Of a DNA stretch of 32,000 bases, positions 2,963 to 28,889 are shown in pieces. Position numbers and translations under genes: made by a program. Source of the DNA: Deinococcus radiodurans R1 = ATCC 13939 = DSM 20539 (GTDB taxonomy: Bacteria > Deinococcota > Deinococci > Deinococcales > Deinococcaceae); contig NC_001263.1 of assembly GCF_000008565.1 (NCBI RefSeq), positions 1,124,929 to 1,156,928 on the forward strand, read 5' to 3'. Each line of letters opens with the position of its first letter. The first letter of the stretch is position 1. The notes below the pieces were generated by a model. It saw only the letters and a list, made by a program, of their open reading frames with translations, did not search any database and had not been told where the DNA came from.

Positions 2963-3083
2963 TCTCGACCACAAACTTCGCCTCTGCAACAGAGGCAGGG
3001 GGTAGTGTACGCGCGGGTTTTGGGGGCTGTCAAGGTGCGGTGCGGCGGGCATGGCAATTTGTCCGGAGCTGCACTACGCTGGC

Positions 3084-4235
3084 ATGTCTATGATCGCGCA
3101 CGTCATCAATCCGGGGATCAGCGGCGTCAAGCTCGCGTGTGCAGTGATTGAGCCGGGGCAAAACCCGGCCTTCCCCAGCCACTTGCAGGTGAGCCTGACC
3201 CGTGAGGAACTCCCGCTGGAGGCGGCGCCCGACGAACTCGGTCTGGACGCCCTGGCCGAGCGCATTCTGGAGCAGACTGCCGCGTGGCCCGCCCCCGACG
3301 CGGTGGTGGGACGCGGCGGCCTGATGGGCCGGGTGCCTGCCGGGACGTACCACGTCACCCCGGAACTCGCCCGCTACGTCCTTGAAAATGTCTCCGGCTC
3401 ACAGCCTGCCGACGACCCCAATCCGGGCATAGGCGCGCCGCTGGCGCTGCGGGTGGCGCAGGCGCGTGGGGTGCCCGCCTACATCGTGGACCCGCAGAGC
3501 GTGGACGAACTGCTGCCCGAGGCCCACATGACCGGGGTGCCCGGCGTGCGCCGCGAGGCCCGCTTCCACGCCCTCAACGCCCGCGCCGTGGCCCGCCGCG
3601 CCGCCTACGAGGTCGGCAAGCAGTTCCGGGAAGCCCGCGTGGTGGTCGCACACCTCGGGGTGACCACCAGCGTCACGGCCTTCGACCAGGGCCGCGCCAT
3701 CGACACTACGGGTACGGCTCCCGACGGTGGCCCGATGGGTGCCCGCCAGAGCGGTCCACTGCCCACCCGCGCCGTGATTCGGCTGCTCCAGACCCAGAGC
3801 GAGTCCGAGCTGCTGCGCCTGCTCACGCGCGGCAGCGGCTTTTTTGCCCTGACCGGAACGGCGGACCTCAGCGAAATCGAGCGCCGTCAGGAACAGGGTG
3901 AGGACAGCGTAGTGCAGACCGCCATCGCCGCGTTCGTGCATCAGGTGTGCAAGGCCATCGGGGAGCAGACGGCGGCGCTGCCGGGGCGCCCGGACGCGGT
4001 GGCGCTGACCGGCGGCATCGCCCGCTGGGACGCGGTGGTGGACCGCATCGAGCGTCGCCTCGCCTGGGTCGCGCCTTTCATCGTGCTGCCGGGTGAACTC
4101 GAACTCGAAGCGCTCGCTGAGGGCGCGGGCCGGGTGCTGCTCGGCCTCGAAGGGGTGCGCGAGTGGACCCCGGAAGGCGTCACCCTACGCCCCGCCGCGC
4201 CGCTGGTGCAGGTCGAAACGGTGGAGGAAGTCTGA
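3084..4235 (+). CDS. buk: Butyrate kinase-like acyl-phosphate kinase (ASKHA superfamily)
   Basis: The ORF track gives 3051..4235. ATG 3084 (MSMIAHVINPGISGVKLA) best matches the usual Buk N-terminus (M..ILxINPGSTSTK). The C-terminus GGIARWDAVVDRIERRLAWVAPFIVLPGELELEALAEGAGRVL is the typical Buk tail. Start choice among 3051, 3084 and 3090 is uncertain. Confidence 0.75.
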   Translation: MSMIAHVINPGISGVKLACAVIEPGQNPAFPSHLQVSLTREELPLEAAPDELGLDALAERILEQTAAWPAPDAVVGRGGLMGRVPAGTYHVTPELARYVLENVSGSQPADDPNPGIGAPLALRVAQARGVPAYIVDPQSVDELLPEAHMTGVPGVRREARFHALNARAVARRAAYEVGKQFREARVVVAHLGVTTSVTAFDQGRAIDTTGTAPDGGPMGARQSGPLPTRAVIRLLQTQSESELLRLLTRGSGFFALTGTADLSEIERRQEQGEDSVVQTAIAAFVHQVCKAIGEQTAALPGRPDAVALTGGIARWDAVVDRIERRLAWVAPFIVLPGELELEALAEGAGRVLLGLEGVREWTPEGVTLRPAAPLVQVETVEEV

Positions 4236-4685: not shown

Positions 4686-5804
4686 ATGACTGACCCCACG
4701 CCGCAGCCGCCCGCCGTCCTCTTCGAACGGGTCGTGGTGGCCGGAGTGGGACTGATCGGGGGCAGCATGGCGTTGGGTCTGCGCGAGCGTGGGCTGGCGC
4801 GCCGCATTGTCGGTTTGGATCTCAACCCCGACGCCCTGCGTGAAGCCGAAGCTCTGGGCGTGGTGGACGAGGTGCGTTCACGCCCTGGCGAGTGGTTGCG
4901 CGAGGCCGATCTCGTGGTGCTGGCGGCCCCGATGCGCTCGCTGGCCCCGCTCGCCGCCGAACTGGCGCCTTTCCTCGACCCGGCGGCGCTCGTCACCGAT
5001 GTCGGCAGCGTCAAGTCGGGCATCGCCGCCGAGTTGCAGGCGCTTGGGGTCCGGCATTTTGTCCCCGGACATCCGATGGCGGGCAGCGAGCGCGGCGGCG
5101 TCACCCACGCCCGCGCCGCGCTGCTGGAAAACGCCGTCTGGGTGATGACGCCGACCGAATTTACCCCGCTGACCGCCCTGACCCGCGTGCGTTCGCTGGT
5201 GGAGGCGCTAGGCGCCGCGCCCGTCGTGATGCCGCCCGAGGCGCATGACCAACTGGTCGCCACCATCAGCCATCTGCCTTACCTCGCCAGCCTCGCGCTG
5301 ACCCACATGGTGGCCCGCGACGAGCGCCTGAGCCTGCTCGCCGCCGGGGGCTTCCGAGACCTGACGCGGGTGGCGAGCGGAGACCCGCTCATGAGCCGTG
5401 ACATGGTGGTCGAAAACCGGGCCGCCCTGCGCGACGCCCTGGGCCGCTTCCGCACCCAGCTTGAGCGTCTCGAAGCCGACCTCGACGACCCCGAAGAACT
5501 CCTTGCCGCCGCCCGCGAAGGCAAGCGCACTCGCGACAGTCTGCCCGTGGTGCGCCGCAGCCTGCTCCCGCTGCGTCACGATCTGGTGGTCGCCCTGCCC
5601 GACCGACCCAACCAGATCCGCGCTGTGACCCAGGCGCTCGGCGCCGAGCGGGTCAACATCAAAGACATTGAAGTGCTGGCGATCCGCGAGGACGGCGGTT
5701 CGCTGCGCCTTGGCCTCGAATCTCCCGAGGATGCTGCCCGTGCCGCCGTCATCCTGCGCGAGGCCGGCTTCGAGGTGCGGGGCCGGGGCGCGGGAACGGC
5801 TTGA
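4686..5804 (+). CDS. tyrA: Prephenate dehydrogenase with a C-terminal ACT-like domain
   Basis: It has a Rossmann motif (VVVAGVGLIGGSMALGL). The core contains HFVPGHPMAGSE and THARAALLENAVWVMTP. The C-terminal part ~LVVALPDRPNQIRAVTQALGAERVNIKDIEV is ACT-like. The track ORF begins at a GTG at 4659, but ATG 4686 is preferred. Confidence 0.85.
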   Translation: MTDPTPQPPAVLFERVVVAGVGLIGGSMALGLRERGLARRIVGLDLNPDALREAEALGVVDEVRSRPGEWLREADLVVLAAPMRSLAPLAAELAPFLDPAALVTDVGSVKSGIAAELQALGVRHFVPGHPMAGSERGGVTHARAALLENAVWVMTPTEFTPLTALTRVRSLVEALGAAPVVMPPEAHDQLVATISHLPYLASLALTHMVARDERLSLLAAGGFRDLTRVASGDPLMSRDMVVENRAALRDALGRFRTQLERLEADLDDPEELLAAAREGKRTRDSLPVVRRSLLPLRHDLVVALPDRPNQIRAVTQALGAERVNIKDIEVLAIREDGGSLRLGLESPEDAARAAVILREAGFEVRGRGAGTA

Positions 5805-5883: not shown

Positions 5884-7164
<1,281 letters not shown>

Positions 7165-7758
7165 GGGGCATTCCTTTGAAAACGCGGCGCGCGGGCGAGG
7201 TCTGGGTCGTGCGCTGGCCGGAGAAGACGTAAAGACATGTGGACAATCTGGTCTGACGTTCCGTACGCCTCTGCTGCAGCCGGCGTGAGGAGTGGAACGC
7301 TAGGCGAGTGCATCTTACACATGCTACTCAAGGTGTGTCTAGCGTCCTGCACGCTGTGTACCTGTTAAAGGAAACGGTCAACTGGTCAGGTCTCGGTGAG
7401 TGTCAGAGAAAACAGGGGCCTGTCGTCTTGTCTCCGTCTGGTCTAGAAACGCTGGCGAAGAGCCTCACATTAAAATCCTCATGAGACTAGAAAATAAGAT
7501 TGTCGTCTTCTATCTCATGAGATGGTGGATTGGGCAGGCTCTGATGGGAGAAAACGCTTCACATAAGAAAGTCTATATTCATCATTAAAACCACATGATG
7601 TGTTCTAACTGCTCTTTTCTGACGAGCCCTCCTCCAGTGAATACTCACGGAAAAGACAATTTTCACAGAATGCTCATGGAGGCTGTCTACCGTAGTGAAA
7701 GGAGCTGATAGAGGTTCAGAACTTCTCTTGCCTTTTTCAGCCGCTTAAGGAGAACCCC

Positions 7759-9030
7759 ATGCGAAAGACCCTCGTGATTTCTTCCATCCTGGCTCTGGGC
7801 CTGGGTGCTGCCAGCGCTCAGACTGCGGCCCCCGTGACCACCACCGCTGCCACTCAAGTGACGCAGTTCACCGACGTTCCTGCCGGCCACTGGGCCAAGG
7901 ACGCCGTTGACCGCATCACCCAGTGCGGCCTGATCCAGGGCTTCCCCGACGGCACCTTCCGTGGGAACGAGAACCTGACCCGTTATCAGGCTGCCCTGAT
8001 TTTCTACCGCATGCTCAGCACCAACGCGCTGTCCACCTGCGGCCTGAGCCAGGGCGACATGACCGTCGTGATGAACGGCATGCAGGAAGTCAGCACCGAA
8101 CTGGCCGCCATCGCCACCCGCGTGGGTGATCTGGAGCGCGTGACCGCCGACCAGACCGCTCGCCTCGCGGCCCTCGAAGAGCGCATCAACGGCATGGCCA
8201 GCGGCACCGCCAACCAGGACGTGACTGCTCTCACCGCCCGTATCGACGCGCTGGAAGCCGCCGTGCGCAACATCCCCGCTGGTCCCCAGGGTCCCGTCGG
8301 TCCTCAGGGCCCCGTCGGCCCCCAGGGTCCTGCTGGTCCTCAGGGTCCTGCCGGCACGGTGACCACCACCGACACCACCACGACGACCACCAACACCACC
8401 ACGACCGATGCGCCCGTGACCAACACCGGCAGCACCACTGTCGTGATCGGCAACGTGCCGACCACCACCGACACCACCGCGAGCAACCTGTACGCGGGCG
8501 TGACCGTCGGCGCCAAGCAGGGTGACAGCAGCCAGCCCTGCGTGACCAAGGTTGGCAAGAACAACGCCGGCAAGGCCGTGGACTACTGCGTCAACATCGG
8601 CGGCGTTGTCGGCGCCAAGAGCGTCTTCGGGCCCGTGGGCGCCCGCGTGGCCGCTGTCTACCAGCCCGGCTGGAACGGCGTGAGCGCTGACGTGGCCGCC
8701 ACTGGCAGCTTCGACGTGGCCGAGAACTTCGGCGTGTACGCTGGCGCCGGTCTGGGCATCACCAACAGCCGTGCCCGTATCGCTGCGGGTCAGACCAACG
8801 CCGGTTACGGCGCCACCACCGGCAGCGCGACCGATCCCTACGCGCTGGGCCTGGTCGGTGTCGAGTACCGCGTGAACAACAGCGTCGCTGTGTTCGTGGA
8901 AGGCAACGGCCGCTACTACCTGAGCAACAAGGGTGTGGGCACCGGTCTGAACACCGCCAGCAGCAGCTACAACGCCAACCAGAAGGGCTTTAACCTCGGC
9001 GGCAAGGCCGGCCTGAAGTTCTTCTTCTAA
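7759..9030 (+). CDS. SLH-domain envelope protein: signal peptide, SLH, coiled coil, collagen-like (GPX)8, Thr-rich linker and C-terminal beta-barrel (SlpA-like outer-membrane to peptidoglycan tether)
   Basis: An AAGGAG RBS lies 6 nt upstream. The signal peptide is MRKTLVISSILALGLGAASAQ. The SLH motif is FTDVPAGHWAKDAVDRITQCGLIQGFPDGTFRGNENLTRYQAALIFYRML. Heptad-like helices follow (LAAIATRVGDLERV...LAALEERI...IDALEAAV). GPQGPVGPQGPVGPQGPAGPQGPAG occupies 8281-8352. The C-terminal half has alternating G/aromatic beta-strand character and ends GLKFFF, an outer-membrane-protein-type terminal Phe. Confidence 0.9.
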   Translation: MRKTLVISSILALGLGAASAQTAAPVTTTAATQVTQFTDVPAGHWAKDAVDRITQCGLIQGFPDGTFRGNENLTRYQAALIFYRMLSTNALSTCGLSQGDMTVVMNGMQEVSTELAAIATRVGDLERVTADQTARLAALEERINGMASGTANQDVTALTARIDALEAAVRNIPAGPQGPVGPQGPVGPQGPAGPQGPAGTVTTTDTTTTTTNTTTTDAPVTNTGSTTVVIGNVPTTTDTTASNLYAGVTVGAKQGDSSQPCVTKVGKNNAGKAVDYCVNIGGVVGAKSVFGPVGARVAAVYQPGWNGVSADVAATGSFDVAENFGVYAGAGLGITNSRARIAAGQTNAGYGATTGSATDPYALGLVGVEYRVNNSVAVFVEGNGRYYLSNKGVGTGLNTASSSYNANQKGFNLGGKAGLKFFF

Positions 9031-25838: not shown

Positions 25839-25866
25839 AAAAAAGGCCACCCTCCAGCCCGGAAGG
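25839..25866 (-). terminator. Candidate terminator of the coiled-coil operon
   Basis: The minus-strand RNA reads CCTTCC-GGGCT-GGAGGG (6 bp with one G-U pair) followed by TGGCCTTTTTT, about 25 nt after the stop at 25890. The stem is weak. Confidence 0.35.
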
Positions 25867-25889
25867 TCGCCCCCTTTGGACTCCTGCGC

Positions 25890-27038
25890 TCAGTTCTTGC
25901 CCTTGCCCTGGGCTTTGGCCTGCTCCATCGCCAGTTCCTTGAAGGCGCTGAGGCTGCTGGCGTTGGCCTGCCCCTCGATGGCCTTGACCGCGAGGTCCTG
26001 CATCTGGCGGCTGGCGGCGCTGACCTGCTCGGACAGTTGCTGGGCGCGGACGCTGAGCAGGTCGAGGCGGGTCTGGGCGCTCTGGATGCGCTGCTCGTAG
26101 ACGCGGCGCTGGCCTTCGATGTCCTTTTCCTGCAACTCGGTCCGCACGCGGGCCTGCCGGGTGCCGATGCCGTTGCCCTCGGCTTCGGCGCGCTTGAGGG
26201 CGGCTTCGCGCTCGGCGGGCAGGGCGGCGGCGCGCTCGGTGACTTCGCGCCACTTCTGCTCGCGTTTCGTCAGCTCGGCTTCCAGGCTATTCCACTCGCG
26301 CTCCTGGGCGTCAAGCCGCTCGGCGCGGGCGCGGGTCAGTTCGGCCTGCTCGGTGCGGTAGGTCTCGTCGTCGAGGCGGCGGTCGAGGTCGCGCTGGTAG
26401 CTGTAGTCGGCCGTGTCGCGCTCGCGGGCGGTCCGGGCGGCGAGGTCGCGCTCGGCCGTAGCGCGTTCGCGGGCGTCCTCCTCGTCTTCCCACTCGCGCT
26501 GGCGCGCTTCCCATTCCTCGGCGGTGGCCGTCTGCTGCGTTTCGAGCTCGGTGCGCGAGGCTTCGGCGGCGGCATCGTACTCGGCGAGCAGGTCACGCAG
26601 CGCGTGTTCGCCCGCCGTCAGGCCGTAGAGGTCACGCAGCGCCTCGCGTTCGGTCTGCGCCAGCTTGAGCACACCCTGGAGCCCGGCGGCCTCGGCGCTG
26701 AGCTGCTCGGACAGCTCCGCCAGCGTGCCCGACGCCCCGGCCTGAAGCTGGGCGAGCAGCCCGAGCGCGACGGTCATGCGGCCCGACGCTTCGCCCGGCT
26801 CTGTCGGCAGTTCGCGGCTGGCTTCCTGCATCGGGCCTTTGGGGGCGGCCTGCTGCTGGACCACCTGCTGCTGTGCCACCTGCTTCTGAGCCTCGCGCAC
26901 TTCCTTGTCTTTCTGGGCGAGCTGGCCCTTGAGGGCGCCGAGCTGACCTTCGAGCTGGCTGTACTCCTGAATCAGGTCGTCGAAGGCTTCGAGGATTTTG
27001 GCCTTGGTGGCGCTGTCGGCGGGGCGTTTGACGCTCAT
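25890..27038 (-). CDS. Long coiled-coil protein B (382 aa), function unknown; second gene of an RDRM-preceded operon
   Basis: High third-position GC. It is E/R/A/Q/L-rich with heptad character throughout, and has no TM segment, signal peptide or catalytic motif. Its ATG 27038 overlaps the stop of the upstream paralogue (ATGA). Confidence 0.75.
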   Translation of the reverse strand: MSVKRPADSATKAKILEAFDDLIQEYSQLEGQLGALKGQLAQKDKEVREAQKQVAQQQVVQQQAAPKGPMQEASRELPTEPGEASGRMTVALGLLAQLQAGASGTLAELSEQLSAEAAGLQGVLKLAQTEREALRDLYGLTAGEHALRDLLAEYDAAAEASRTELETQQTATAEEWEARQREWEDEEDARERATAERDLAARTARERDTADYSYQRDLDRRLDDETYRTEQAELTRARAERLDAQEREWNSLEAELTKREQKWREVTERAAALPAEREAALKRAEAEGNGIGTRQARVRTELQEKDIEGQRRVYEQRIQSAQTRLDLLSVRAQQLSEQVSAASRQMQDLAVKAIEGQANASSLSAFKELAMEQAKAQGKGKN

Positions 27039-28017
27039 GCTTCACTCCTGCTGGTGCTGGCGGTGGTAAAGGCGCGGGTGGCGAGGTTCTGGGTCTGTTC
27101 GCTGACGCGCTGCTGCTGGGCCTGCAACTCGGCGACCTGCGCTTCGGCGGCGGCGACGGCGGCTTGCAGCGAGTCGAGGTGCAGTTCGTAGCTCTGCTTG
27201 CTCGCTTCCCAGTCGCGTTCCAGCAGGTCCGAGCGCACTTTGGCGTCGGCATTGGCCTGCCGGATGCCTTCTTCGCGGGCCTTTTTGACGGCTTCTTCGA
27301 GTTCGGCGGGGAACGCCTCCACCTTGATGCGGTCTTGCTCGAACTGCTCGGCGCCCGCTTGCAGGGCGGCCTCGCGCTCGCGCCAGTCGCGTTCCAGGGT
27401 CAGGCGGCGTTCGGCGAGGTCGCGTTCCTGGGCGCGGTCGGCGGCGTGCTGTGCGTCGGCGTCGTGCTGGCGCTCGCGTCGCGCCGGTAGCTGTGATCGG
27501 CTTCCTCCTGCTGGCGCTCACGGGCCGTTTCCTCCTGCTGACGCCTTTCTTCTGCGGCGAACTCGGCGTCCTCGCGTTCCCAGGCGCGGCGCTCGGCGCT
27601 CTGCTCGCGGTTCAGGGCGTCCAGCCGCGCCTGATGCTCGGTCTGGAGCCGGGCGACGCGTTCACGGCCTTCTTGCTGCAAGGCGGCCAGCGCGTCGGCG
27701 GCCACCCGGATGCGCCGCAGCTCGGCCAGTTCGCGCCCGGCGACCTCGCCAGCGGTCACCAGCTCGGCGAGCTTCGACGTCTCGCCCGAAAGCCGCTCCT
27801 CCAGTTGCGCCAGCACCGCGCCGACTTCGAGCTGCACGTCCGCCGACTGCCGCACGATGTGGTCCACCGTGTACCCCGCCGCCCGGTCCAGCACCTCGCG
27901 GTCCCGCTGGGTGCGCTGCACCTCGGCGCGGCTCTGAAACCTTCCCTGCGCCGCAGCCTGCTCTTTCCGCACCTCGGCAAACGCCTGCTGTAAAGCCTGA
28001 GATTCGTCCTTCGTCAT
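27035..28017 (-). CDS. Long coiled-coil protein A (about 327 aa after restoring one base near 27478), paralogue of protein B; first gene of an RDRM-preceded operon
   Basis: ATG 28017 follows AAAGGAGAAGCT. The frame of track ORF 27400..28110 is coiled-coil up to ...EEADHSYRRD and then degenerates to ASASTTPTHSTPPTAPRN. Shifting one base gives RERQHDADAQHAADRAQERDLAERRLTLERDWREREAALQ..., which runs directly into track ORF 27035..27322. Confidence 0.7.
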
Positions 28018-28045
28018 AGCTTCTCCTTTAAAACCCGCTTTGTTT

Positions 28046-28062
28046 TTACGCTTAAAACATAA
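28046..28062 (-). promoter_or_regulatory. RDRM-like 17-bp palindromic operator (candidate DdrO binding site) overlapping the putative -10 of the coiled-coil operon
   Basis: The coding-strand sequence is TTATGTTTTAAGCGTAA. Its half-sites TTATGT and TTACGC fit the TTMYGY-N5-RCRKAA pattern. It sits 29 nt upstream of ATG 28017. TTGCAC (28085-28080), an 18-nt spacer and TATGTT form a sigma-70-like promoter around it. Confidence 0.65.
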
Positions 28063-28145
28063 CACGGCGGGAGGACTTTGTGCAAGTGGACACACTGGGC
28101 TGTGACTCACGGTTGGGCTGAAGTGCTGGCGCTTCTGGGCAGAGT

Positions 28146-28889
28146 TCAGGTGACCGGCGGATAGGCAATCGGATTTTGTGCGTTCCTGGCGAAAGAGGCC
28201 GTCACCGAGTGATAGAGATAGCGGTTCCTCACCTCTTCCGGGGCAACGTGTCCGACAAATTCCCAGCGCTGCGGGTCGTTGACCGCTTCGGCGAGTCGGG
28301 TCTGATAGGGAGTTTGGCCCGCCGGGTGCCAGGACTCGATGGTGTACACCTCACGCACGACTCCTTCAAAGACGGCCAGCGCGTATTTGACTTCCTGCTG
28401 GCGCCACTTCGCCACCTTCCAGACGCCCCGCGTCGCCTCGTACAGCTCCTGCGCGGGCATCCCGTGCCAGTAGAGCCGATTGCTGCGGATAAGCATCACT
28501 GGGTCGGTGATCACGGCGGGCGGCGCGGCGTAGTAAGTGACGAGTTCTTCAAGCGACCTGCGTCCAGAGCGCACACTTTGCCAGCCCCTCACCAGATTGG
28601 ACAGCGAATCCAGTCCCAGCAGATCAATGGCCGCCGCCTCGATTCGGTAGGCCGTGGCTTCGTCGGGCAGTCCGTGGGCCAGGATGTCGAGCCTCGGTGA
28701 CAATTGCGCCTGTCGGAGTTCAGCCAGAATCTGCGCCTTGCGTGACTCGCCCTCCGCCGATAAATGCGAAAGAACACGCTGGCCCTGGCCTTTGCCGACA
28801 TAGAAGACCTGTTCCGTCCTGGGGTCTACGTACAGATAAACGTAATACCCCAGGTGCTGAGCGACTTCCGGCGGGATGCTGGGGGTCAC
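28146..28889 (-). CDS. GIY-YIG nuclease-domain protein with an uncharacterised C-terminal domain
   Basis: The N-terminal HLGYYVYLYVDPRTEQVFYVGKGQGQRVLSH matches the GIY-(10-11 aa)-YIG/YVG motif plus the downstream Arg. A helical R...E region follows (YRIEAAAIDLL). The ~140-aa C-terminal domain is unrecognised. It starts 7 nt after the lepA stop. Confidence 0.7.
   Translation of the reverse strand: MTPSIPPEVAQHLGYYVYLYVDPRTEQVFYVGKGQGQRVLSHLSAEGESRKAQILAELRQAQLSPRLDILAHGLPDEATAYRIEAAAIDLLGLDSLSNLVRGWQSVRSGRRSLEELVTYYAAPPAVITDPVMLIRSNRLYWHGMPAQELYEATRGVWKVAKWRQQEVKYALAVFEGVVREVYTIESWHPAGQTPYQTRLAEAVNDPQRWEFVGHVAPEEVRNRYLYHSVTASFARNAQNPIAYPPVT

What the first reader, a model, noticed from the sequence alone, without database searches (positions are those of the whole stretch)
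25890..28085. RDRM-type operator in front of a translationally coupled pair of paralogous, function-unknown coiled-coil proteins (candidate uncharacterised DNA-damage-response module)
Seen in sequence: on the coding (minus) strand the 17-mer TTATGTTTTAAGCGTAA (28062->28046) lies 29 nt upstream of ATG 28017, which has a perfect AAGGAG RBS. A TTGCAC-N18-TATGTT promoter-like arrangement places the -10 inside the palindrome. Two ORFs follow, of about 327 aa and 382 aa, joined by an ATGA stop/start overlap at 27035-27038. They are clear paralogues, sharing EADHSYRRD / DTADYSYQRD, FPAELEEAVKKAREEG / LPAEREAALKRAEAEG, and QRVSEQTQNLATRA / QQLSEQVSAASRQM. Both are E/R/A/Q-rich heptad-type helices from end to end. 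Neither has a TM segment, signal peptide or catalytic motif that I recognise. Established knowledge: the half-site pattern TTMYGY-N5-RCRKAA is the radiation/desiccation response motif of Deinococcus. It is bound by the repressor DdrO, and DdrO is cleaved by the metalloprotease IrrE/PprI after irradiation. Inference: this is a damage-inducible heteromeric coiled-coil pair of unknown mechanism, perhaps a scaffold, a nucleoid-associated factor or a membrane-remodelling factor. It sits directly beside a GIY-YIG nuclease gene. It is the best candidate for an undescribed system in this window.
Basis: partly seen in the sequence, partly recalled or inferred. Interest (0 to 1): 0.8.

Follow-up and report, generated by a model that had tools for sequence, protein, structure and literature searches.

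The report
Damage-induced ZicK/ZacK-type filament protein operon
This is the already published DdrO-repressed, radiation-induced operon DR_1143/DR_1142 of Deinococcus radiodurans. Its two "unknown" coiled-coil proteins turn out to be counterparts of ZicK and ZacK, a cyanobacterial pair that only forms cytoskeletal filaments together.

Summary
The 17-mer TTATGTTTTAAGCGTAA (28062->28046, minus strand) is the only exact RDRM match in the window. It scores 26.1 bits on a matrix built from 21 published sites; the next best hit scores 13.8. It sits at -44/-45 from the start codon in four other Deinococcus species.

It is not undescribed. The window is D. radiodurans R1 and the genes are DR_1143/DR_1142. 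The site was predicted in 2007. ChIP-seq, EMSA and irrE-mutant data confirmed it later. DdrO depletion induces the two genes 42-fold and 26-fold.

The first ORF is frameshifted in this window because one G is missing. This is an error of the 1999 assembly: the intact 327-aa protein occurs on 176 contigs and the truncated one on a single contig.

The new result is that the pair belongs to the same family as ZicK/ZacK (Alr4504/Alr4505) of Anabaena, which form intermediate-filament-like filaments only together. Identity is 37% and 33% over the full length (E about 1e-62). The A->B gene order holds in 75 of the 78 cyanobacterial loci with usable upstream sequence, in Enhygromyxa and in Deinococcus.

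Cyanobacterial zicK promoters carry a LexA-box palindrome in 60 of 78 loci. This suggests, but does not show, that the family was recruited to a stress or damage regulon in two phyla.

The GIY-YIG neighbour resembles the PD-T4-3 defence gene, is missing from the same position in other species, and is not part of the module.

The parts
28080..28085 (-). -35-like hexamer TTGCAC. CTTGCACAAA is invariant in five Deinococcus species.
   Evidence: Below the threshold of the generic sigma-70 scan.
28046..28062 (-). RDRM operator TTATGTTTTAAGCGTAA, the DdrO binding site. It overlaps the -10-like TATGTT (28061-28056), which has TGT immediately upstream.
   Evidence: 26.1 bits. Conserved at -44/-45 in L084-L087 and in L092/L093. 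Published ChIP-seq and EMSA evidence.
28023..28028 (-). Ribosome-binding site AAGGAG, 5 nt before the ATG at 28017.
27035..28017 (-). Gene A = DR_1143 (DRO_1140), the ZicK-type subunit, 327 aa when intact. In this window it is broken by a missing G between 27479 and 27478, an error of the 1999 assembly.
   Evidence: 37% identity over 319 aa with no gaps to the ZicK homologue WP_015137204.1, E = 4e-62. AF2 helix 51-321.
27035..27038 (-). ATGA stop/start overlap between A and B (translational coupling).
   Evidence: The same 4-nt overlap is present in L084-L087, L092 and L093.
25890..27038 (-). Gene B = DR_1142 (DRO_1139), the ZacK-type subunit, 382 aa. It has a conserved C-terminal motif Q.QDLAVKAIEG...AMEQAK.
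   Evidence: 33% identity over 381 aa to the ZacK homologue WP_015137203.1, E = 1e-63. AF2 helix 146-356.
25840..25867 (-). Terminator-like hairpin followed by a T-run, just after gene B; the probable end of the operon.
   Evidence: The scan found 2 sites against 3.2 expected in shuffles, so this is weak on its own; the position fits.

Best explanation
This is a two-gene operon of D. radiodurans, DR_1143-DR_1142. Its promoter is occluded by the repressor DdrO, which binds the RDRM palindrome overlapping the -10 element. After irradiation or desiccation the metalloprotease IrrE cleaves DdrO, and the operon is derepressed about 25-40-fold.

The two products are paralogous, acidic, all-helical rods. 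They are the Deinococcus counterparts of ZicK and ZacK of Anabaena. By analogy, they most likely need each other, in equal amounts, to assemble without nucleotide into intermediate-filament-like heteropolymers. The ATGA overlap would help keep the two subunits at 1:1.

The filament is proposed to act as a transient cytoplasmic scaffold during recovery, influencing nucleoid distribution or segregation, or cell division and shape.

Basis of each step:
- Shown here or published: the operator, its conservation, DdrO control, co-induction of both genes, family membership, the conserved gene pair, and the predicted rod architecture.
- Inferred by homology: heteropolymer formation in Deinococcus.
- Speculative: the cellular role.
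For: Regulation:
- Exact RDRM, the top PWM hit at 26.1 bits.
- Same site, same distance from the ATG and same -35 in D. hopiensis, D. arcticus, D. aquaedulcis and Deinococcus sp. HMF7604, while the surrounding sequence diverges. Also present in two divergent loci, L092 and L093.
- Published ChIP-seq + RNA-seq + motif evidence, plus EMSA, irradiation-transcriptome and irrE-mutant data. Induction of 41.7x and 26.3x on DdrO depletion.

Family:
- A vs WP_015137204.1 and B vs WP_015137203.1 give E = 4e-62 and 1e-63 over the full length. These accessions are listed as the ZicK/ZacK homologues of Nostoc PCC 7524 in Springstein et al., supplementary file 2.
- Lengths match: ZicK 327 aa and ZacK 359 aa.
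- Synteny phoU-sphS-sphR | A B matches all4501-all4503 | alr4504-alr4505.
- The A->B order holds in 75 of the 78 cyanobacterial loci with usable upstream sequence, in Enhygromyxa and in all Deinococcus-type loci.
- A-type and B-type sequences form separate clades, each holding all three phyla.

Mechanism by analogy:
- ZicK and ZacK co-assemble only together and only at equal amounts. They interact with each other, with MreB and with SepJ; an interaction with ParA is also referred to. The double mutant shows altered DNA distribution.
- AF2 models give 211- and 271-residue continuous helices with pLDDT above 90 in the core.
Against: - No experiment addresses the Deinococcus proteins themselves.
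- D. radiodurans is a coccus. I recall that it lacks MreB, and it has no SepJ or trichome context, so the cyanobacterial partners and phenotype do not transfer (from memory, not tested here).
- The in vitro ZicK/ZacK assemblies were obtained by renaturing denatured protein, and the authors found no common transcript in Anabaena.
- Identity to ZicK/ZacK is only 33-37%.
- The charged middle third has no heptad pattern, so the analogy to canonical intermediate-filament rods is loose.
- The AF2 models are monomers with pTM 0.32.
Confidence: 0.6

Rival explanations
1. The pair is a nucleoid-associated DNA-repair factor that acts directly on DNA, in the way proposed for DdrC or PprA (compaction, end-tethering or recombination scaffold), rather than a cytoskeletal filament.
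For: - Most RDR-regulon members act on DNA.
- The zicK zacK double mutant has more condensed DAPI signal and DNA strings between cells, and a ParA interaction is referred to.
- RecA is listed among proteins in the ZicK-GFP pull-down tables.
- The BMAA proteomics authors group Alr4504/Alr4505 with DNA metabolism, on the basis of STRING partners.
Against: - Both proteins are acidic, pI 5.06 and 4.94, with a net negative charge.
- No DNA-binding or ATPase domain is detected.
- 'SMC' or 'SbcC' labels given by some sources reflect coiled-coil composition only.
- The pull-down lists contain many abundant proteins.
Confidence: 0.2
2. The pair is a stress-protective or membrane-remodelling helical protein, in the manner of PspA/Vipp1 or LEA proteins. 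It would be induced to protect the envelope or proteins during desiccation, with no role as a filament.
For: - Induced by desiccation- and radiation-type stress and by BMAA stress in Nostoc.
- Highly charged helical composition.
Against: - No Pfam match to PspA/IM30 or LEA families in the hmmscan of A, B and 31 family members.
- The models show one long rod, not an ESCRT-III-type hairpin.
- There are strongly conserved specific residues (W, Y, R and the C-terminal motif) rather than low-complexity repeats.
Confidence: 0.08
3. The pair forms one functional island with the adjacent GIY-YIG nuclease, either as a defence system or as a nuclease-plus-scaffold repair module.
For: - The genes are adjacent and on the same strand in D. 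radiodurans.
- A and B match phrog_29668, a family from phage or prophage genomes.
Against: - The GIY-YIG gene is absent between lepA and the pair in four other Deinococcus species.
- It matches the single-gene defence system PD-T4-3.
- The RDRM promoter lies downstream of it.
- No neighbour is conserved across phyla.
- No phage genome hit was found by tblastn.
Confidence: 0.04
4. DR_1143 is a decaying pseudogene, so only DR_1142 is functional in D. radiodurans.
For: The window carries a frameshift, and Makarova et al. noted one.
Against: The intact 327-aa protein is on 176 D. radiodurans contigs, including later assemblies. The truncated products are on 1 contig only, of 2,648,638 bp.
Confidence: 0.02

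Closest known systems
ZicK (Alr4504) / ZacK (Alr4505) of Anabaena sp. PCC 7120: heteropolymer-forming, intermediate-filament-like coiled-coil-rich proteins (Springstein et al., bioRxiv 10.1101/553073)
   Same: - Full-length homology, with each Deinococcus protein in the matching paralogue group.
- Same lengths: 327 aa for the A type and about 360-380 aa for the B type.
- Same A->B gene order.
- All-helical, acidic, cytoplasmic.
- Strong induction under stress in both organisms.
   Different: - 33-37% identity.
- The Deinococcus genes overlap (ATGA), and both are co-induced on DdrO depletion, which fits one operon. No common transcript was found in Anabaena.
- The regulator is DdrO/RDRM rather than a LexA-like box.
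- The host is a unicellular coccus, so trichome shape, SepJ and probably MreB are irrelevant.
- Polymerisation has not been tested for the Deinococcus proteins.
RDR regulon genes of unknown function in Deinococcus, for example ddrC, ddrD and ddrF, all controlled by DdrO/IrrE
   Same: - 17-bp RDRM overlapping the promoter.
- DdrO ChIP peak.
- Strong induction after damage or DdrO depletion.
   Different: I recall that those genes are essentially restricted to Deinococcus (not tested here). This pair belongs to a family also found in Cyanobacteria, Nannocystales myxobacteria and an uncultured clade with a single-gene form, and is present in only a minority of Deinococcus species.
Crescentin and FilP/Scy-type bacterial intermediate-filament-like proteins
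   Same: Long helical rod and nucleotide-independent assembly. Assembly has been shown only for ZicK/ZacK.
   Different: - No detectable sequence homology.
- Assembly needs two different subunits, whereas the other bacterial IF-like coiled-coil proteins are reported to self-assemble from one subunit.
- The middle third of the rod lacks heptad periodicity.
Cyanobacterial LexA regulon (box RGTACNNNDGTWCB; Mazon 2004, Li 2010)
   Same: The palindrome TAGTAC-N4-RTACTA at zicK promoters has the same form as published boxes. AGTACAAAAGTACT is itself among the sites Li et al. predicted in PCC 7120.
   Different: - This concerns the cyanobacterial relatives, not the window.
- LexA binding at zicK has not been shown.
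- alr4504 and alr4505 do not appear in Li et al..

Membership tests
RDR (DdrO/IrrE) regulon of Deinococcus | 17-bp RDRM palindrome in the promoter region | tested here: met
   Exact consensus match, unique in the window. PWM score 26.1 bits against a training median of 20.5.
RDR (DdrO/IrrE) regulon of Deinococcus | Site conserved upstream of the corresponding genes in other Deinococcus species | tested here: met
   Exact RDRM at -44/-45 in four species. One or two mismatches at -45/-44 in L093 and L092. Weak in Deinococcus sp. Arct2-2.
RDR (DdrO/IrrE) regulon of Deinococcus | DdrO binding, and induction that depends on IrrE and DdrO | not testable with these tools
   Published: ChIP-seq peak, RNA-seq, EMSA, irradiation transcriptome and irrE mutant (PMC8533742). 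Induction of 41.7x and 26.3x on DdrO depletion (PMC12934235).
ZicK/ZacK coiled-coil-rich protein family | Full-length sequence homology to ZicK and ZacK, each protein matching its own paralogue type | tested here: met
   E = 4e-62 and 1e-63. Accession link through. phmmer bit scores separate the A and B types in every locus. The NJ tree shows two clades.
ZicK/ZacK coiled-coil-rich protein family | Adjacent, co-oriented A->B gene pair | tested here: met
   75 of the 78 cyanobacterial loci with usable upstream sequence, Enhygromyxa, and 8 of 8 Deinococcus-type loci.
ZicK/ZacK coiled-coil-rich protein family | Cytoplasmic, all-helical, coiled-coil-rich, no TM segment | tested here: met
   AF2 helices 51-321 (A) and 146-356 (B). 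No hydrophobic run longer than 9 residues.
ZicK/ZacK coiled-coil-rich protein family | Mutually dependent, nucleotide-independent co-polymerisation | not testable with these tools
   Shown only for the Anabaena proteins.
Canonical intermediate-filament-like rod (crescentin/FilP type) | Continuous heptad-based rod | tested here: inconclusive
   A 3.5-3.6-residue periodicity is present in the outer thirds and absent in the charged middle third. No Foldseek match in the PDB.
SMC/RecN/SbcC-type coiled-coil ATPases (labels some sources give to relatives) | Walker-type ATPase head domains flanking the coiled coil | tested here: not met
   No Pfam or NCBIfam domain in A, B or 31 relatives. The PDB profile hit to RecN is only E = 0.019, on a coiled-coil stretch.
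PD-T4-3 phage-defence GIY-YIG nuclease (neighbouring gene, 28146-28889) | Match to the PADLOC model. For the 'one island' idea: conserved linkage to the pair. | tested here: not met
   The model match is strong (E = 2.2e-44; Pfam LEM-3_GIY-YIG). Linkage fails: the gene is absent from this position in four species.
Cyanobacterial LexA regulon (concerns the relatives, not the window) | LexA-box palindrome at the promoter | tested here: met
   AGTAC-N4-[GA]TACT occurs in 60 of 78 upstream windows, against 9 sites in about 918 kb of the same loci. It extends to a 16-nt palindrome placed 26-31 nt after TTGACA. LexA binding is untested.

The most novel reading that the evidence does not exclude
The ZicK/ZacK family may be a conserved, stress- or DNA-damage-inducible two-subunit cytoskeletal filament. 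On this reading it was wired independently into the damage regulon of two phyla: DdrO/RDRM in Deinococcus and a LexA-type box in cyanobacteria. Its primary role would be to handle the nucleoid or pause division after genotoxic stress. The trichome-shape defect in Anabaena would then be a secondary effect. This would be, to my knowledge, the first damage-inducible intermediate-filament-like system in bacteria.
Probability: 0.3. Interest if true: 0.7.

Novelty: new member of a known kind. Interest (0 to 1): 0.42.

Why it matters
The finding as written is already in the literature: the RDRM operator and the damage-induced paralogous pair. On that basis it is ordinary.

What the follow-up adds is a functional handle on one of the most strongly induced RDR-regulon genes still listed as a hypothetical protein. 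DR_1143/DR_1142 can now be tested directly as a ZicK/ZacK-type heteropolymer, by co-assembly, localisation after irradiation and double deletion.

In the other direction, the conserved LexA-like box at cyanobacterial zicK promoters, and the 20-fold stress induction of Alr4505, suggest that ZicK/ZacK may belong to a stress response rather than being a dedicated multicellularity factor.

The work also shows that the frameshift quoted since 2007 is an error of the 1999 assembly, and that the GIY-YIG neighbour is an unrelated defence-type insertion.

Tried and rejected
- Pfam, NCBIfam and PADLOC scans of A and B gave only coiled-coil noise.
- A PDB profile search gave nothing below E = 0.016, all on coiled-coil stretches.
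- Foldseek of the B model against the PDB gave no match. A single long helix is not a searchable fold, so the remaining fold-search jobs were not used.
- tblastn against 50,697 phage genomes found no match, despite a match to phrog_29668.
Deinococcus loci had to be fetched one at a time through the look-up of encoding contigs.
- A functional link to the phosphate two-component system (sphS/sphR/phoU) was considered, because it lies next to the pair in 61-64 loci. It was rejected: the synteny is confined to Nostocales and their closest relatives, and is absent from Oscillatoriales, Leptolyngbyaceae, Crocosphaera, Waterburya and others.
- Damage-type operators were sought upstream of the Enhygromyxa pair and of the single-gene form. 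Nothing convincing was found with one to three sequences.
- No RDRM occurs upstream of any cyanobacterial zicK.
- An A+B heterodimer was not modelled.
- I could not confirm that Alr4504 of PCC 7120 itself was among the homologues returned; it did not appear in the 120 hits listed. The link therefore rests on the PCC 7524 accessions, the matching lengths and the synteny.
Full report
**What is in the sequence**

On the minus strand the region reads: TTGCAC (28085-28080), an 18-nt spacer, then TATGTT (28061-28056) with TGT just before it. The 17-mer TTATGTTTTAAGCGTAA (28062-28046) covers this -10-like element. AAGGAG (28028-28023) lies 5 nt before the ATG at 28017.

The 17-mer is the only exact match to TTMYGY-N5-RCRKAA in the 32-kb window. 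I built a weight matrix from 21 published RDRM sites, leaving this one out. On it the site scores 26.1 bits. The training median is 20.5, and the next best position in the window scores 13.8 and is intragenic.

Two ORFs follow and are joined by ATGA at 27038-27035. A hairpin with a T-run follows the second ORF at 25867-25840.

The stretch 28017->27035 is 983 nt, not a multiple of 3. Frame 0 ends at 27400 after ..HSYRRDASAS.., and the conserved C-terminal part continues in another frame.

An exact look-up shows that the truncated products (205/236 aa, DR_1143, AAF10725.1) occur on one contig of 2,648,638 bp. An intact 327-aa protein reading ..HSYRRERERQHD.. occurs on 176 D. radiodurans contigs, including later assemblies. 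The window therefore lacks one G between 27479 and 27478. This is an error of the 1999 R1 assembly, not a pseudogene or programmed frameshift.

With the base restored, A and B are paralogues: 33% identity over 260 aa, E = 6e-16.

**The finding is already known**

B is 100% identical to a D. radiodurans protein seen on 228 contigs.

- Makarova et al. 2007 list DR1143 with exactly this site (TTATGTTtTaAgCgTAA, score 4.78) in the predicted radiation/desiccation-response regulon. Their note reads 'Similar to DR1142, but with a frameshift' (PMC1978522).
- Eugenie et al. [quoted passage not shown] They cite earlier EMSA, irradiation-transcriptome and irrE-mutant evidence (PMC8533742).
- A 2026 paper lists DRO_1140 at 41.7-fold and DRO_1139 at 26.3-fold among the genes most induced by DdrO depletion (PMC12934235).

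In these papers the products remain 'hypothetical protein'.

**Conservation within Deinococcus**

The pair is present in only some species. In D. hopiensis, D. arcticus, D. aquaedulcis and Deinococcus sp. HMF7604 it has these features:

- The same 4-nt overlap between the two genes.
- An exact RDRM at -44/-45 from the ATG.
- The invariant CTTGCACAAA at the same spacing, although the rest of the intergenic sequence has diverged and the spacer of the palindrome varies.

Two divergent metagenomic or read-assembly loci keep an RDRM-like site at the same place: L093 (GC 44%) with ATATGTTATTAGCGTAA, and L092 with TTATGTTTACAGCTAAA. Deinococcus sp. Arct2-2 has only a weak half-site.

In all four complete species the pair follows lepA directly. 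The GIY-YIG gene of D. radiodurans (28146-28889) is absent there. It matches the PADLOC model for the single-gene defence system PD-T4-3 (E = 2e-44) and Pfam LEM-3_GIY-YIG. It is a lineage-specific insertion, not a partner of the pair.

**What the proteins are**

Neither protein hits Pfam, NCBIfam or the PDB beyond coiled-coil noise. Homology searches nevertheless show a well-conserved family outside Deinococcus. It is found in hundreds of cyanobacteria, in Enhygromyxa and other Nannocystaceae, and as a 342-aa single-gene form in uncultured bacteria.

- Among the 78 cyanobacterial loci with usable upstream sequence, and in Enhygromyxa, an A-type gene lies immediately upstream of a B-type gene on the same strand in all but three loci. 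In two of these the B gene lies near the end of the retrieved DNA (L064, L009); in the third (L004) only a fragment of an A-type gene was found, about 2.3 kb upstream.
- No other neighbour is conserved across orders. The phoU-sphS-sphR block seen in 61-64 loci is confined to Nostocales and their closest relatives.
- That block gave the link to the literature. In Anabaena PCC 7120 phoU, sphS and sphR are all4501, all4502 and all4503. The next genes, alr4504 and alr4505, are ZicK (327 aa) and ZacK (359 aa).
- The A and B homologues of Nostoc PCC 7524 that I retrieved are WP_015137204.1 and WP_015137203.1. These are the accessions Springstein et al. list as the ZicK and ZacK homologues of that strain.
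- D. radiodurans A aligns to that ZicK homologue at 37% identity over 319 residues without a single gap (E = 4e-62). B aligns to the ZacK homologue at 33% over 381 residues (E = 1e-63).
- A neighbour-joining tree puts the A-type and B-type sequences in two clades, each holding Deinococcus, cyanobacteria and Enhygromyxa, with the single-gene form apart. The duplication is therefore older than the spread among these phyla. DR_1143 corresponds to ZicK and DR_1142 to ZacK.
- No paper in the library mentions ZicK/ZacK together with Deinococcus.

**How it most likely works**

For Anabaena the following is reported:

- ZicK or ZacK alone aggregates.
- Together, and only at equal amounts, they form filaments without nucleotide.
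- They interact with each other, with MreB and with SepJ; an interaction with ParA is also referred to.
- The double mutant has zigzag filaments, swollen cells, mislocalised MreB and more condensed DNA.

AF2 models built from family alignments give essentially one long helix for each Deinococcus protein. A has a helix at 51-321 and B at 146-356, with pLDDT above 90 in the core. B also has an N-terminal helix, a disordered linker at 61-103, and a short conserved tail. Both proteins are acidic, pI about 5, with no possible TM segment. Hydrophobic periodicity of 3.5-3.6 residues marks the outer thirds. The strongly charged middle third, with the conserved RE..(D/E)Y.Y motif, lacks it.

The best-supported reading has three steps:

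1. DdrO sits on the -10 region. (Shown or published.)
2. IrrE-mediated cleavage of DdrO after damage releases a 25-40-fold burst of both subunits. The overlapping stop and start codons would favour 1:1 synthesis. (Induction is published; the coupling is inferred.)
3. The two rods pair and polymerise into a transient cytoplasmic scaffold. (Inferred by homology.)

What the scaffold does in a coccus is speculative. Candidates are nucleoid positioning or segregation, a division pause, or mechanical support.

**An unexpected parallel in cyanobacteria**

The A-gene promoters of the cyanobacterial loci share the layout TTGACA-N17-TATATT, followed 4-7 nt later by the palindrome TAGTAC-N4-RTACTA.

- The core AGTAC-N4-[GA]TACT is present in 60 of 78 upstream windows (1.9 per kb). 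Only 9 sites occur in the remaining roughly 918 kb of the same loci (0.01 per kb).
- One-mismatch variants such as AGAACAAATGTACT and AGTACATTTGTTCT occur in most of the other loci, including some outside Nostocales.
- The flanking T and A, which my pattern did not select for, are invariant. The spacer and the surroundings vary.
- This is the form of the cyanobacterial LexA box RGTACNNNDGTWCB. AGTACAAAAGTACT itself is among the predicted LexA sites of PCC 7120 (PMC3091678).
- alr4504 and alr4505 do not appear in that study. Its rank-3 site in N. punctiforme is assigned to a two-component-regulator unit, Npun_F4214-4216. This is probably the gene block transcribed divergently from the same intergenic region, but I could not verify it.
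- Independently, proteomics in Nostoc PCC 7120 found Alr4505 up 20-fold and Alr4504 up 4.35-fold under BMAA stress (PMC8147232).

This suggests, but does not prove, that the family is stress- or damage-inducible in two phyla through two unrelated repressors.

**Verdict**

The regulatory interpretation is right but already published and experimentally validated. The 'undescribed system' claim and the GIY-YIG link do not hold.

The pair is a Deinococcus member of the ZicK/ZacK heteropolymer family under DdrO control. I found no mention of this family assignment, or of the LexA-box parallel, in the searchable literature. Both give concrete experiments.

Noticed in passing
window 28146-28889 (-): The GIY-YIG gene next to the operon matches the PADLOC model for the single-gene phage-defence system PD-T4-3 (E = 2.2e-44), phrog_5356 and Pfam LEM-3_GIY-YIG. 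It is absent between lepA and the pair in four other Deinococcus species, so it looks like a D. radiodurans-specific insertion of a defence gene.
   Followed up: partly
window 27478-27480 (-): One G is missing relative to all later D. radiodurans assemblies, which splits DR_1143 into 205/236-aa and 95-aa ORFs. The window therefore comes from the 1999 R1 assembly, and other frameshifts in it may also be sequencing errors.
   Followed up: yes
window 3842-3858: The second-best RDRM matrix hit in the window is TTTTGCCCTGACCGGAA at 13.8 bits, just above the weakest training site (12.3). It lies inside long ORFs (3051-4235 on the plus strand, 3399-3941 on the minus strand) and is probably chance.
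   Followed up: no
L006-L083, about 120-380 nt upstream of the A-type (zicK) start codon: Conserved promoter layout TTGACA-N17-TATATT followed by the LexA-box-like palindrome TAGTAC-N4-RTACTA, in 60 of 78 cyanobacterial loci. This is about 200-fold enriched over the rest of the same loci. It is not reported for alr4504/alr4505 in the papers searched.
   Followed up: partly
L093 (Logan SRR33677519 contig), positions 4956-4972: An organism with only 44% GC carries the overlapping A/B pair with an RDRM-like site (ATATGTTATTAGCGTAA) at -45 and a TTGCAA -35. This suggests DdrO-type control outside typical high-GC Deinococcus. The organism was not identified.
   Followed up: no
L088-L090 (gene at 7001-8032): A single-gene, 342-343-aa form of the family with no adjacent paralogue occurs in uncultured bacteria, between an OPT transporter and a rhomboid protease gene. 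It keeps the ZacK-like C-terminal motif AVKAIEGASGA..AMEQAK. It may represent the state before the duplication, possibly a homopolymer.
   Followed up: partly
phrog_29668: A and B match a PHROG family of unknown function nearly end to end (E = 6e-12 and 1e-7). Yet tblastn of A against 50,697 phage genomes found nothing. The PHROG members may come from prophages or be too divergent.
   Followed up: partly
PMC3091678 supplementary tables (N. punctiforme, rank 3): The high-scoring predicted LexA site AGTACTTTTGTACT is assigned to the two-component unit Npun_F4214-4216. Given the synteny sphR | zicK, it may in fact belong to the divergent zicK promoter. This was not verified because the N. punctiforme locus was not retrieved.
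   Followed up: no
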